A stretch of 64,000 nt of DNA. Origin: Octopus vulgaris (taxonomy: Eukaryota). The stretch covers positions 19,592,001-19,656,000 of the forward strand of contig OX597826.1 in assembly GCA_951406725.2 (NCBI GenBank), in the 5' to 3' direction. Under the pieces are notes generated by a model that saw only the letters and a list, made by a program, of their open reading frames with translations, ran no database searches and was not told the origin of the DNA. Within the stretch, counting starts at the first letter, position 1. Each line of letters begins with the position of its first letter. Made by a program: the position numbers and the translations under genes. Below, piece by piece: positions 3,355 through 64,000 of the stretch.

Positions 3355-3389
3355 GTTTAATGTTTCGAGCGGAGCTCTTCGTCAGAAAC
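3355..3389 (-). ncRNA. Minimal type I hammerhead ribozyme motif (C3:G8 core, stem III decayed)
   Basis: Minus strand reads GUUU-CUGACGA-A-GAGC-ucc-GCUC-GAAA-CA-UU-AAAC. Homologous to 26723-26760. Confidence 0.6.
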
Positions 3390-4283
3390 ATAGGAAAAGC
3401 ATAGACCAAAATAATAGTGTTCAAACTGTAAATTTTCACGTGATGGTCAACCATGGCTAAAGCCTATCCAAAACCTTATGTTTATATATTATTTATATAT
3501 AATATAATACGGCAGGGAAATTTTTTCTTTTTGGGGGTGGGGTGGGGGGTTGAATATTTCTGTACAAATATCCAGAAGCATTTATGGCTCGTATAGAGGC
3601 TCACCTTTCATATAATGTATCTAGTAAGAATGAAGAAATTTAGTGTTGATCTCATTTCTGAGATAATCTCGTCAGTTTCGAATCCAGCCTCTGTGCTAAA
3701 TTATAGTTTATTGTTGTAGAGAGTATGGGCAATGGATAATTCATAAGTGGTTTCTATTGGTGAATGAGTATGTTATATTGACAATAACAATTTGTAGAAT
3801 TAACATTGTGAGGGTATTAATGTTAGAGATGTGCAAATGTTTTTTCTTGGTATTTGTGGTGGTAGCTTTCTATGCCACTTTTGTCATGTTTAATTGTATA
3901 ATTATTGCTCAAATTTCTAGTCGGATTCCATATGCCAAAAGTTAAGTTCTCATTACTTCTCTATATTACCGACAATATATCGAGGGAACCTCTACTTCGT
4001 CGATTGAACAACTAGTATTAGCTACCAAATCTTCACTTTACACCCGAACACCTTTAAAATGCTGTCCAGGAGATTTTCTGTCAGACAATAAAAAAAAAAA
4101 TACGGATGGGATTAGTGGCTGGTTACTCTATTATATACGTCTGATAAGCCTGCTTAGTCCAGAAATTCACAAAGTATTTATAACATCTTCAACTAAAAGA
4201 AAATCACTTCACGAACTATTCCAACTATCATTAGCAAAGTTTTGAATACATTGCTCGCTAGTCACGTATAAGCAAAATGCTCA

Positions 4284-4454
4284 GGATTGTCGCTTCGACG
4301 GACGACGATTGTGAAGAGGGGGAGAACGAGGTGCCCAGCTTGAGAAGATCTCGACGCGCAAGGCGCCCTCCCGGTTGGATGGTGGACTACGACATGGAGT
4401 AGAGAGATTGTGATCTTTAAGATCAGGGTAGCGTGTGGGATGACGTCCCCAACA
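4284..4454 (+). mobile_element. Second Gypsy 3' fragment ending in a collapsed LTR
   Basis: Near-identical to about 768-931 and ends in TGTGGGATGACGTCCCCAACA. Confidence 0.85.
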
Positions 4455-4771
4455 AATAACACAAACGCTACAGACTACTCTCCAGACTAATGAGTGCTTT
4501 AACACAATACCGTTTCACTAATGCCTTTTGAATGTTGATGGCTTTCCTGCACCTCCTTATAATACATACCCAACCACAGCAGCTCGTCAGTTTCCACTTA
4601 TTTATAGACTCCCTGCGGTTGACTTGTGATTTCTTGAGCTTTCTCTTGCCTGCTCTGTAACTCAGTAGGCTAAGCTACCACTACACTACTAGAAACCTCT
4701 CTATGTCACCCTAGATGCACTTCTACTACACTTCTGCAATCTCAGACTACAAATACCGCAGCACATACCAT

Positions 4772-5729
4772 TGTAGAGCGACCGTGCGTAAAGGAGATGG
4801 TGACAAATGTCTCCTTTTTGAACGCCGCACAGTCGCCTTACAAAAGAAACCAAAATAAGTGCCAAAAAGAATAAGGAAAAAACACAACCGTATAATGTAT
4901 AAAAGAAAAGACTTTATTTAAATATGTTTGTGTCTTAAGAGTGTCTGTTTACGTGTGTACACTATAAGTAACAATACAGAGCATAAAAAGAGTGTCCAGA
5001 CACAAATGGAGAGAATTACTAGTTCGTAGTAATATACACAATAGCAGAGGTTCTGTAACAGAGAAGTTGAGGCAACAAAGTGGAGAGCCGGTTACTACGC
5101 ATGTAGAGGTTGCGGCTTCTATCCTATGCAGGGTTACTTGTTACAGAAGATTCTCGCAAGCAGGCTAGCTGTTAACCTTGGTGAGTATTCACAAGCAGCG
5201 TTACTTGTTACAGAAGATTCTCGCAAGCAGGCTAGCTGTTAACCTTGGTGAGTATTCACAAACAGCGTGAAGTTCAAACCTGGTCGATGTTGATGTGTAC
5301 ATATTGTTGAAGTCGACGGTGGTGATGGTGACGGTGGGAAAAGGTCCTGAAATGCTGCGATGGTGTTGTTGTTGCTGAGACATGGCTGAGTCGCTCGAAC
5401 ATGGTTGAGTCGCTCGAACTGGCTGGCTGTCGCTGGATGCTCTGTGGTCAATGGTCTAGAACCAAAAGACAAGCGATTCAATCGATCGCTGGGTTTTATA
5501 ACAATCTAGAGGCCCCAGAAGAAAACCTGGAGGACTGTGTCACGGGGCCTTATCTGAAGGTTGCGATTGGTTGGTTTACACACTGACGCGATAAAACTGC
5601 ACCAAAACCAACCAATCAGAGCAGCGGACACAACTGGGCCAAAGCAACCGAAGGATGGCTGTTATCTACCACGACGTTATTTGTATGATATCTCTCAAAG
5701 AGGGATAATGTATTTCACTAAGCGCTACA
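4772..5729 (-). mobile_element. Solo LTR with 4-bp TSD
   Basis: Minus strand runs TGTAGCG...CGCTCTACA. CCAT lies on both sides (4768-4771, 5730-5733). TATAAAA and AATAAA occur on the minus strand. A related copy starts at 10424. Confidence 0.8.
5133..5268. repeat. 67-bp tandem duplication within the solo LTR
   Basis: gttacttgttacagaagattctcgc...agcg starts at both 5133 and 5200. Confidence 0.9.
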
Positions 5730-5776
5730 CCATTATCACTTGACTAGATAGAGATCCCCACCATACGACTAGAACC

Positions 5777-5915
5777 AGAGGTGGGCACCGTTAATCGAAA
5801 ATTTAACTTCGTTATTTAATCCGTCAACCAAAAAGTTAACTTCGTTAATCGTTAATCTGTTAATTCTTTGAAAATGTAACGGAAGTTAACGTTAATCCAT
5901 TAATGTTAACTTTTA
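5777..5915 (+). mobile_element. hAT-like terminus with GTTAA subterminal repeats
   Basis: CAGAGGTGGGCA followed by many (C)GTTAA(C/T) motifs. Confidence 0.55.
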
Positions 5916-60433: not shown

Positions 60434-60533
60434 NNNNNNNNNNNNNNNNNNNNNNNNNNNNNNNNNNNNNNNNNNNNNNNNNNNNNNNNNNNNNNNNNNN
60501 NNNNNNNNNNNNNNNNNNNNNNNNNNNNNNNNN
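60434..60533. other. Assembly gap (100 N)
   Basis: Run of n. Confidence 1.
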
Positions 60534-62404
60534 ATATGTGTATGTGCGTGTATGTGTATGTATGCATATATGTATGTATGCATGTATATGTGTATGTATA
60601 TATGTGTGTAAGTGTGTGCATATATGTATATGTAAGTATGTGTGCGTGTATGAGTATGTATGTATGCTTGCACACGTGTATATATGTGTGTGTGTGTATA
60701 TATATGGATGCACGTGCGTGTGTGCACGTGTATGGGTACGCATGTATATGTGTATGTGCGTGTATGTGTATACGTGTATGTATGTATGTGTGTGCGTATA
60801 TTTGTATATGTATGTGTGAGTGTGTATATATATATATATATATATATATAGATGGGTGTGTGTATGCGTATAAATGCATGTAAGTATGGATGTATGGATG
60901 TATGTATGTATGTATACGTATGTATGTGTTTGTGTGTATATGTATGTATGTGTGTGTATGTGTGTATATATATATATATATATGTGTGTATATATGTTTG
61001 TGTATGTATATATATGTGTATGTATGTGTGTGTATATATATGTGTATGTGTATGTATGTATATATATATATATATATATATATATATATATATATATATA
61101 TATATATATATAGGTATGTATCTGTATGTAGGAGTATATGTGTGTGTGTGTATGTATATGTGTATATATATATATATGTATATTTATTGGTGTATATGTA
61201 TAGACTAGCCTCCTAAAGTGTAGACACGAATCTGTAGGTACGAGTACGTATGTGTATATACGTGAACGTATGTAGATGTTTGTATGTATGAATATAACGC
61301 GTGCGTACGTGTATGTGTATGAGTGTACGAATGGGTGAATGTACGTGCTAATGAGTGTGCGTGCGGGAATGAGTACTTGCCTTCTAGTAGACAGACAAAT
61401 GGACATGCTGCCATAGCCAGGATCCTTAGCTCTAGCGATCAAAGATAACAAAAGTAATAAATGAAGATAATAAAATTAAAATTAGGGAATGGGCCTGTAT
61501 TGGATTGTATATATATATATATATATATATATATATATATATGTATGTATGTGTGTATGTGTAGGTATGTATAGGTACACATGTGTATGTGTATGTGTAT
61601 GTATGTGTGTATATGTATGTATGTGCACACATGTATATATATGTATGCGTGTATATGTATATATGTATATATATATATATATATATATATATGTACATAT
61701 GTGTATGTGGGTGTATGTATATATAGGTGTAAATATGTGTATATAGGGAACTAGGTGTGTTGTGTGTGCATGAGTGTATGTGCGTATGAATATATATTTT
61801 TCTGTGTATATATGTATGTGTGGTCGTGGGTATATATATACATGTGTGTATGCGTGCATGCATGGGAGTGAGTGTATGCATATATACGTGTGTGTATGTG
61901 TAGACAGGTATATGCATGTGCATGTGTATAAATTTGTATATGTGGGCGGGTGTATGTATGTGTGTATGTAGATATGTATGTATATGTGTATATATGTATA
62001 TGTGTATATATATATATATGTATATATATATGTGTGTGTATATATATGTGTGTAGATACGTATACATATGTGTATAGGTATAAGTGAGAATCTCCTTATT
62101 TACCTATAACTCTATCCCCCCTTTTTTTTTTATATATATATATTTTTTTTTTTATATATATATATTTTTTATATATATTTTTTATTTTTTTATTTTTTTA
62201 TTTTTTTATTTTTTTATTTTATTATTTTATTATTTTTTTATTTATTTTTTTATTTATCTATTCTTTCATCTAACTTACCACTGACTCCTTGACCACTCCC
62301 CCAAGTATGATATTTTGCGCTATGCCTACCCCCAAAAAAGTCCCCCACCACCACTCCTTTAAACCTGCCTAAATGTATAAATGCTAATACAATTCTTGTT
62401 AAAT

Positions 62405-62455
62405 AGCTTCCTGAAGATTTCTCTTGAATGAAACAGTACTAGTCCTGTAGAAGCT
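62405..62455 (+). ncRNA. Type I hammerhead ribozyme
   Basis: AGCUUC-CUGAAGA-U-UUC-ucuu-GAA-U-GAAACAG-uacuaguc-CUGUA/GAAGCU: 6-bp stem I, 4-bp stem III and GUA triplet; predicted cut after 62449. Confidence 0.85.
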
Positions 62456-62541
62456 CCTTCTATATAATAAATTAATTTTACTCTGCTATGTATTGAGTAC
62501 CTTACTTACTGTGGTTAACCCCGAATCAACCCGGGACCTAC

Positions 62542-63738
62542 ATATATATATGAATATATATATATATATATATATATATATATATATATATATATATATA
62601 TATATATATATATATATATATATATATATATATATATATATATATATATATATATATATATATATATATATATATATATATATATATATATATATATATA
62701 TATATATATATATATATATATATATATATATATATATATATATATATATATATATATATATATATATATATATATATATATATATATATATATATATATA
62801 TATATATATATATATATATATATATATATATATATATATATATATATATATATATATATATATATATATATATATATATATATATATATATATATATATA
62901 TATATATATATATATATATATATATATATATATATATATATATATATATATATATATATATATATATATATATATATATATATATATATATATATATATA
63001 TATATATATATATATATATATATATATATATATATATATATATATATATATATATATATATATATATATATATATATATATATATATATATATATATATA
63101 TATATATATATATATATATATATATATATATATATATATATATATATATATATATATATATATATATATATATATATATATATATATATATATATATATA
63201 TATATATATATATATATATATATATATATATATATATATATATATATATATATATATATATATATATATATATATATATATATATATATATATATATATA
63301 TATATATATATATATATATATATATATATATATATATATATATATATATATATATATATATATATATATATATATATATATATATATATATATATATATA
63401 TATATATATATATATATATATATATATATATATATATATATATATATATATATATATATATATATATATATATATATATATATATATATATATATATATA
63501 TATATATATATATATATATATATATATATATATATATATATATATATATATATATATATATATATATATATATATATATATATATATATATATATATATA
63601 TATATATATATATATGTATATATATATATATATATATATATATATATATATATATATATATATATATATATATATATATATATATATATATATATATATA
63701 TATATATATATATATATATATATATATATATATATATA
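62542..63738. repeat. Long (TA)n array
   Basis: Read directly from the sequence. Confidence 0.95.
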
Positions 63739-64000
63739 CTACAAAATTAGAGAATGGAGAAACATACTTAAATCAGTAAAACATCAACTATCCGATGATA
63801 CTCAATCCATACTTTAATACACCATTACATATGAGTAAAGGCAATATATAAAATGAAATGAGATATACAGTAATAGTAAAAGTAAAAAGATAAAGAGATA
63901 TAAGTAAAAAATTTCAAATATAATATGCAAATAAATCAAAACTGACAGCTGTTTCGGCAGTGAGGACAGTCATACCTCATTTAACCTATAAGCCATAAAG

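What the first reader, a model, noticed from the sequence alone, without database searches (positions are those of the whole stretch)
3355..63958. Many short islands between (TA)n arrays carry a hammerhead motif: a diverse ribozyme-bearing repeat system
Seen: 8 near-complete folds (3355, 20846, 26723, 29184, 29998, 33231, 59885, 62405) and partial ones (17386, 63942), from about six or more unrelated sequence families. Most lie in 150-500-bp islands in or beside (TA)n, often with a palindromic stem III. Cores are CUGAAGA, CUGACGA, CUGUUGA, UUGAUAA, UUGACAA and GUGAACA, and positions 3 and 8 are complementary in every one. Established: Penelope-like elements carry minimal type I hammerheads in their pseudo-LTRs, these can act as dimers, and the Naiad clade favours (AT)n. 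PLE RT and GIY-YIG fragments occur in this window. Inference: these are pLTR remnants or non-autonomous retrozyme-like elements of several (TA)n-targeting PLE families.
Basis: partly seen in the sequence, partly recalled or inferred. Interest (0 to 1): 0.8.

Follow-up and report, generated by a model that had tools for sequence, protein, structure and literature searches.

The report
Octopus Penelope elements with variant hammerheads
The motifs are real hammerhead-shaped RNA folds at the tail ends of several Penelope-type jumping genes that sit in TA repeats of what is likely an octopus genome; this is a known kind of element, but one young family carries a swapped core base pair and two protein-free families likely spread through RNA circles.

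Summary
Confirmed. All ten sites are type I hammerhead folds or parts of one (7 pass a fixed descriptor; 0.15 expected from shuffles; 29 vs 1.2 in 780 kb sampled elsewhere). They belong to nine repeat families. Seven trace to Penelope-like elements (PLEs) with a C-terminal GIY-YIG endonuclease: three Neptune-type, three Hydra-type, and one of unassigned clade. Two (362-bp and 593-bp units, no ORF, head-to-tail arrays with inverted 5' parts) are retrozyme-like. Naiads are not the parents. This architecture is published, including an octopus Hydra family with hammerhead and (TA)n preference, and this scan has reported it in other genomes. What I did not find in print: a family with 5,534 exact G3-C8 cores and no C3-G8 copy, whose sister family has C3-G8; a Neptune family with no A at position 6 in 20 of 20 copies; and a conserved ~70-residue RT fingers insertion in that G3-C8 family's clade. 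Cleavage and circles are untested; copy 5' ends do not pile up at the cut site. Lünse 2017, the likeliest prior report of such variants, was unavailable.

The parts
3254..3410 (-). Family B solo end-repeat of a Neptune-type PLE; hammerhead 3355-3389, core CUGACGA (most unselected copies CCGACGA, U4C), predicted cut after 3359
   Evidence: parent pLTR-ORF-pLTR with 3.78-kb period in L327
17304..18315 (-). Family I: internally deleted, decayed Hydra-type PLE; RT fragments 17424-18315 fused to the 3' half of the hammerhead (17384-17436)
   Evidence: endonuclease 200-600 nt upstream of the hammerhead in 3 of 3 extended loci; RT text resembles Hydra-1_Obim by eye
20634..20983 (+). Family E, 362-bp ORF-less unit, as an inverted pair (inverted arm 20634-20838); hammerhead 20847-20887, core UUGAUAA (U3-A8), two decay substitutions in this copy
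26596..26768 (-). Family D 3' end of a Neptune-type PLE; hammerhead 26723-26760, core CUGUUGA (A6U), predicted cut after 26728
   Evidence: (40 of 40 scored copies 100% identical)
29104..29314 (-). Family C 3' end of a Neptune-type PLE; hammerhead 29184-29228, core UUGACAA (U3-A8), U.U at the base of stem II
31099..32827 (-). Upstream part of the same family C 3' UTR (CA/TG-rich), split off by a 1.8-kb insertion
   Evidence: 90% to L220 and L223
29813..30127 (+). Family A inverted pair carried as a passenger inside the 29315-31098 insertion; hammerhead 29998-30048, core GUGAACA (G3-C8)
   Evidence: same composite in L221 and L271
33003..33523 (+). Family G, 0.88 of a 593-bp ORF-less unit; hammerhead 33231-33331, core CUGAAGA, 70-nt stem II, palindrome ACGUACGU, predicted cut after 33325
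40951..41169 (-). Decayed Hydra-type GIY-YIG fragment
   Evidence: 36% to the family H endonuclease, E 1e-5; no convincing Pfam hit
59758..59944 (-). Family A short end-piece; hammerhead 59885-59934, core GUGAACA (G3-C8), predicted cut after 59892
   Evidence: parent ORF of 1025 aa in L111
60534..62540 (+). Family H 3' UTR (microsatellite-rich) of a Hydra-type PLE, cut off by the assembly gap; hammerhead 62405-62455, core CUGAAGA, U.U at the base of stem II, 4-bp stem III
   Evidence: (40 of 40 scored copies 100%)
63736..64000 (-). Family F 3' end of a 5,634-bp tandem Hydra-type PLE lying just right of the window; hammerhead 63942 to 64050 (beyond the edge), core CUGAAGA, about 90-nt stem II

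Best explanation
The sites are hammerhead folds in the 3' end-repeats of seven protein-coding Penelope-like families and two ORF-less tandem families, all lying next to (TA)n, and they were likely placed there by target-primed reverse transcription using Penelope proteins. Shown: parents with RT plus C-terminal GIY-YIG; fixed 3' ends at preferred points 85-300 nt past the hammerhead; variable 5' ends, often with an inverted arm; multi-unit arrays for E and G. Inferred: the endonuclease nicks (TA)n; the RT starts internally at the 'tail' sites; most cDNAs stop just 5' of the hammerhead, which leaves 150-500-bp islands. In the autonomous families the template is likely uncut RNA, so cleavage (likely as dimers through the palindromic stem III, or protein-assisted) is weak or late, which would explain why U4C, A6U and A9C cores can spread. 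E and G likely self-cut to unit length, circularise, and are copied rolling-circle by a borrowed PLE RT.
For: Parents: A (fold nearest to telomerase RTs), B, C, D, F and H, I. Tail and inversion: L111; G 3' ends at 511-526 in 22 and at 26-34 in 11 of 39 runs, inverted arms in 12 of 27 loci, more than one unit in 20 of 27; E ends near 210 and near 270. 22 of 30 family A loci end within 7 nt of one point just 5' of the hammerhead. Compensatory changes between homologous families: stem I GUUU/AAAC vs CUUU/AAAG (B, D), UCUACG/CGUAGA vs CCUACG/CGUAGG (G vs L080), stem II GUCGC/GCGAC vs GUCAC/GUGAC with G3-C8 vs C3-G8 (A vs its sister). Circular fold z-scores -10.4 (G) and -8.0 (E), against -2.4 and -4.1 for two PLE UTR controls and -3.9 and -5.4 for the opposite strands. 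Array-private variants shared by units of one array in 8 of 27 G loci. Literature.
Against: No cleavage or RNA data. 5' ends are not enriched at the cut: 3 of 59 incidental copies within 5 nt (about 2.6 expected if uniform) and 2 of 10 simple G arrays, which gives no support for cut templates even in G. No partner PLE was identified for E or G. Arrays could come from multimeric transcripts of homogenised master loci. Several G variants recur across arrays, so they are not all private. Rfam hammerhead models do not match.
Confidence: 0.85

Rival explanations
1. The PLE origin is right, but the hammerheads in most autonomous families no longer cut; the fold persists as a protein-binding or RT-stop structure, or simply hitchhikes in young families.
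For: Core changes known to lower activity are family-wide: position 6 is never A in 20 unselected D copies, U4C in 22 of 31 B copies, A9C in most sister-family copies. Copies keep the whole hammerhead and do not start at the cut. In the anole PLE, ribozyme mutants insert normally and no reads end at the cut.
Against: Double changes that keep the 3-8 pair (G3-C8, U3-A8) and free variation only at position 7 point to selection on the active-state geometry. U3-A8, U4C, A6C and U10.1.U11.1 variants have been reported active or viable elsewhere, and the engineered C3G/G8C swap partly restores cleavage.
Confidence: 0.3
2. All islands are independent non-autonomous retrozymes that spread through RNA circles.
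For: True-looking for E and G. A deleted 680-bp derivative of B shows the same junction in two loci.
Against: For seven families the sequence next to the hammerhead is the UTR or ORF of a PLE, not a repeat of the island.
Confidence: 0.03
3. The islands are ends of Naiad elements.
For: Naiads prefer (TA)n and octopus Naiads are listed.
Against: The endonuclease is C-terminal in the parents, and in 94 of 94 scorable homologs of family A. Naiads lack canonical hammerheads.
Confidence: 0.01
4. Chance folds in AT-rich DNA.
For: No Rfam hit. The descriptor was tuned on the window.
Against: 29 vs 1.24 in independent DNA and 1 in reversed DNA. Every site is a multi-copy family with the fold at the same place in the element.
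Confidence: 0.005

Closest known systems
Minimal and small-palindrome type I hammerheads in pLTRs of metazoan PLEs (Cervera and De la Pena 2014, PMC4209133; parts 1-2 of 4 and supplement passages read)
   Same: Type I fold near the element end, extra base between 9 and 10.1, palindromic stem III, many families per genome, mostly single truncated or inverted copies, U3-A8 variant.
   Different: G3-C8, A6U, U4C and A9C as family-wide states, and stems II of 70-100 nt, are not described in the parts read; octopus was not found in the searchable supplement.
Hydra-clade PLEs, including Hydra-1_Obim (Craig et al. 2021, PMC8557442; passages, sections 11-12 and supplement passages read)
   Same: RWK-like and DKT motifs, CxCX5C linker, no CCHH, C-terminal GIY-YIG, (TA)n targets, hammerhead present; an octopus family is already listed.
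   Different: Families F and H have 2-3-kb low-complexity 3' UTRs and other hammerhead sequences than the one listed for Hydra-1_Obim.
Neptune-clade PLEs
   Same: Families B, C, D: RT4 motif of the MG-x-x-GPNYANL / APTYANL type, CX4CxxC linker, CCHH endonuclease, microsatellite bias.
   Different: Core variants U4C (B), A6U (D), and U3-A8 with a U.U stem base (C).
Non-LTR retrozymes of animals (Cervera and De la Pena 2020, PMC7229834, passages and discussion read; Li, Clavereau and Pollet 2026 preprint 10.64898/2026.07.22.740005, part 1 of 5 and passages read)
   Same: E and G: ORF-less tandem units with one type I hammerhead each, GC under 45% (G 35%), strongly folded as circles, co-occurring with PLEs.
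   Different: G is 593 bp with a 70-nt stem II; both show PLE-type inverted arms, two tail positions and (TA)n flanks; circles not shown here; no cephalopod case in the passages read.
Poseidon_Ac in vitro system (Frangieh et al. 2024, PMC11167929; parts 1-2 of 4 read)
   Same: Two internal RT start sites giving a tail, AT-rich targets, uncut RNA as main template; engineered C3G/G8C partly active.
   Different: Here the swap is natural and fixed in a young family of a distant clade.

Membership tests
Type I hammerhead (PLE minimal form) | Three-stem junction with core boxes, above chance | tested here: met
Type I hammerhead (PLE minimal form) | Watson-Crick pair 3-8 | tested here: met
   all nine complete window sites; 29 of 38 unconstrained hits
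Type I hammerhead (PLE minimal form) | Canonical CUGANGA core | tested here: not met
   met in F, G, H and the window copy of B; not in A (G3-C8), C and E (U3-A8), D (A6U) or most B copies (U4C)
Type I hammerhead (PLE minimal form) | Match to an Rfam hammerhead model | tested here: not met
   none at E up to 1
Type I hammerhead (PLE minimal form) | Self-cleavage | not testable with these tools
   5'-end footprint inconclusive
EN+ Penelope-like element | Single ORF with telomerase-like RT and C-terminal GIY-YIG | tested here: met
   A: 1025 aa without stop, GIY-YIG E 1.8e-5, nearest folds TERT; B, C, D, F, H in truncated or frameshifted copies
EN+ Penelope-like element | pLTR or tandem layout, inverted 5' arm, optional tail | tested here: met
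Neptune clade (B, C, D) | CX2-5CxxC linker, CCHH, Neptune-like RT4 motif | tested here: met
   motifs read and compared by eye with the published rows; no tree with references
Hydra clade (F, H, I) | RWK, DKT, CxCX5C linker, no CCHH | tested here: met
   F shows all four; H shows the linker and no CCHH; I shows DKT; by motif only
Neptune or Nematis clade (A) | CX2-5CxxC linker and CCHH | tested here: met
Neptune or Nematis clade (A) | No insertion in fingers; clade-typical RT4 motif | tested here: not met
   RT3-RT4 spacing 132 aa vs 60-63; motif GGAIG; 23% identity to the family C RT
Naiad clade | N-terminal endonuclease, no canonical hammerhead | tested here: not met
Non-LTR retrozyme (E, G) | ORF-less tandem units with a hammerhead in each | tested here: met
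   G: 20 of 27 loci exceed one unit, longest stop-free frame 56 aa; E: 5 of 22 loci, most of them picked because they looked tandem, longest frame 62 aa
Non-LTR retrozyme (E, G) | Expression as unit-length circular RNA | not testable with these tools
   only assembled contigs were offered
Non-LTR retrozyme (E, G) | Derivation from an identified PLE end | tested here: inconclusive
   G has about 70% similar relatives but no ORF-linked partner among 358 loci (one search covered those held then); the ORF beside E in L224 lies in a rearranged locus

The most novel reading that the evidence does not exclude
Family A is an active member of an unnamed, widespread clade of C-terminal-endonuclease PLEs with a telomerase-sized (~70 aa) insertion in the RT fingers. 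It carries the first natural G3-C8 hammerhead, fixed by a double swap from the C3-G8 of its sister family. With the A6U and U4C Neptune families and two young retrozymes, one genome offers a natural series that tests whether PLE hammerheads must cut.
Probability: 0.35. Interest if true: 0.65.

Novelty: new variant of a known kind. Interest (0 to 1): 0.45.

Why it matters
What the hammerhead does for Penelope-like elements is open: it cuts poorly in vitro and is dispensable for insertion in the one reconstituted system. Here young, near-identical families with canonical, swapped (G3-C8, U3-A8) and apparently damaged (U4C, A6U, A9C) cores coexist, one with an uninterrupted 1025-aa ORF, so activity can be compared with amplification success directly. 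Extrapolating the sample gives roughly 100,000 such folds in this genome (about 28 above background per 0.78 Mb), many invisible to canonical descriptors. The two ORF-less families predict circular RNAs of 593 and 362 nt.

Tried and rejected
Rfam scan: no hammerhead, 120 matches nearly all on microsatellite-rich DNA. A first, stricter descriptor found only 3 of the named sites (4 with position 6 relaxed) plus junk hits, because it lacked long stems II and U.U bases. Pfam did not convincingly recognise the window's PLE fragments; tblastn with local parents did. Sequencing runs: no RNA holder listed; 14 runs guessed to be RNA hold 51-70% of family G words, and three of them plus one unlabelled run cover all 30 bins of the unit, but contigs cannot show ends, strand or circles and may be DNA, so this counts neither way. 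Cleavage footprint: two G arrays start 1-5 nt from the cut, but none of the four simple arrays added afterwards does, and six other families show no excess; rejected as evidence. The ORF next to E in L224 was rejected as its parent, because that ORF has its own hammerhead 500 nt downstream. The 5'-end count had an offset error and was redone. Lünse et al. 2017 could not be read. Naiad origin, chance, and 'all are retrozymes' were rejected as given under rivals. Earlier-scan look-ups by place and sequence returned nothing.
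Full report
Setting. The window is G000:C13:19592001-19656000 in a 2.8-Gb assembly of 227 contigs. It is likely an octopus: the best named relative of one element's protein is from Octopus vulgaris (57%), and a window RT fragment resembles the published Hydra-1_Obim by eye. (TA)6 or longer covers 11.8% of the window against 2.9% of sampled DNA.

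Observation. All ten sites are present. Window shuffles give 0.15 on average and never 7 in 200; reversed sequence gives 0. Because the descriptor was shaped on the window, I also ran it on 78 stretches of 10 kb taken at round coordinates: 29 hits against 1.24 in 25 shuffles and 1 reversed. The window is thus about three times richer than the sample, in step with its TA content. Dropping the 3-8 rule leaves 29 of 38 hits paired. Hits in all loci held at that point fall into 30 sequence clusters, one of them an artefact. Rfam finds none.

Families and parents. Each island is a high-copy family (710 to 2,774 first-look candidates; only 40 scored per search). F was not searched genome-wide; it was traced through the adjacent DNA. 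A (29998, 59885): the hammerhead lies about 1.2 kb behind a GIY-YIG end. A 1025-aa stop-free ORF with RT, CX3CxxC linker and CCHH endonuclease exists in L111, joined to an inverted arm with a tail present at one end only. Its predicted fold (pLDDT 91.5) is nearest to telomerase RTs. B (3355): end-repeat, ORF, end-repeat at a 3.78-kb period. D (26723) and C (29184): Neptune-type ORFs upstream in five and two loci. F (63942): a 5,634-bp tandem element directly right of the window; H (62405): RT and endonuclease about 3 kb upstream; I (17386): endonuclease just upstream in 3 of 3 extended loci. F, H and I show the Hydra motifs given by Craig et al., whose supplement already lists an octopus Hydra family with (TA)n preference and a hammerhead. 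Clade labels rest on motifs, not on a tree.

Two families have no ORF. G (33231) is a 593-bp unit. All 27 loci returned were examined: 20 hold more than one unit (up to 5.9), 12 have an inverted arm, and units are about 99% alike. E (20847) is a 362-bp unit, more than one unit long in 5 of 22 loci, most of these chosen because they looked tandem. Both fold far better as circles than shuffles (z -10.4 and -8.0), and better than their opposite strands or two PLE UTR controls. They meet the genomic definition of non-LTR retrozymes. No partner PLE was identified.

Core variants. Family A has 5,534 exact matches to a 22-base pattern with G3-C8; of 14 copies changed at both positions none is C3-G8. 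Its sister family (ORF 52-61% identical) has a homologous stem II with a compensatory change and C3-G8, mostly with C at position 9, so the swap is natural. In D, position 6 is U in 19 and C in 1 of 20 unselected copies while position 7 takes all four bases; in B, position 4 is C in 22 of 31. U3-A8, U4C, A6C and the U.U stem base are known natural variants. G3-C8 appeared only as an engineered change in my searches. Searches for octopus with hammerhead, Neptune or retrozyme terms gave nothing beyond Craig et al.. Lünse et al. 2017 was not held, figures cannot be seen, and one supplement of Cervera 2014 and those of the preprint were closed, so priority is uncertain.

Mechanism. Shown: fixed 3' ends against (TA)n at preferred points (G: 22 and 11 of 39 runs, with the query favouring the first; E near 210 and 270), and 5' ends clustered just upstream of the hammerhead (22 of 30 A loci within 7 nt; these loci were selected for matching the whole island). 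From the literature: internal RT start sites make the tail, uncut RNA is the main template, and the hammerhead needs the protein; palindromic stem III allows dimers; the zinc-finger linker is thought to aim at (TA)n. Inferred: nicking of (TA)n, reverse transcription from the tail, early stop or inversion near the hammerhead, and rolling-circle copying for E and G. Variants shared by the units of one array (8 of 27 G loci) fit a single circular template but also fit homogenised masters. 5' ends are not enriched at the cut (3 of 59; 2 of 10 simple G arrays), and the RNA runs offered cannot decide.

A side result. The family A RT has 132 residues between motifs 3 and 4, against 60-63 in the C, F and H parents. 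106 of 120 listed homologs have 128-139 (the other 14 lacked my anchor motifs), and the endonuclease is C-terminal in 94 of 94 scorable. Craig et al. report such an insertion in Naiad (+20), Chlamys (+20-40) and sporadically Coprina, not in C-terminal-endonuclease clades; one search found no other paper. These elements may already be in Repbase or Dfam under generic names, which I could not check.

Verdict. The system is a known kind, and earlier notes of this scan describe it in other genomes. The family-wide core variants, two young retrozyme-like families and a possibly unnamed clade make it a new variant. Interest 0.45.

Noticed in passing
window 22494-25310 (-), 26900-28282 (+), 38928-40880 (-): APE-type LINE copies (one 938-aa frame with endonuclease and RT); the first two lie between (TA)n arrays, and the hammerhead descriptor finds nothing in any of the three, so not every TA island is a PLE.
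   Followed up: no
window 29315-31098: A 1.8-kb insertion with CTAG and a GC-rich hairpin at one end (Helitron-like by recalled features) splits the family C UTR and carries the family A inverted pair as a passenger; the same composite is at L221 and L271.
   Followed up: partly
window 34469-38227: RT with a PHD-like finger (36893-38227, -) followed by 345-357-bp and 63-bp tandem repeats; related 62-68-bp repeats at 55462 and 57172.
   Followed up: no
window 15650-15937, 16590-17015, 48535-48876: Mariner-type transposase fragments, the first two near-duplicates.
   Followed up: no
window 54971-55294 (-) and 18385-18660 (+): GIY-YIG-like fragments by eye; no Pfam hit. The second may be the inverted arm of the Hydra copy at 17304-18315.
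   Followed up: partly
window 47-1120 and about 4290-4420: Frames that look like LTR-retrotransposon remains, one short stretch present twice; no Pfam hit for 488-859.
   Followed up: no
L308:1100-1880, L055, L319: Internally deleted family B derivatives (680-bp and 977-bp periods) that rejoin the ORF start to the end-repeat; the 680-bp junction occurs in two loci, which looks like a retrozyme being born.
   Followed up: partly
L224:300-2314: Sister family of A whose hammerhead has C3-G8 and mostly A9C.
   Followed up: partly
L222:2495-7660: Near-intact Helitron-like Rep and helicase frames of 1120 and 601 aa, named from recalled motifs.
   Followed up: no
random stretches L236, L238, L239, L251: Further hammerhead families with stems II of 54-100 nt and 8-10-nt palindromes.
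   Followed up: no
L308, L326: Family B islands end exactly where the element itself continues with TTTATATA, a possible microhomology to the (TA)n target.
   Followed up: no
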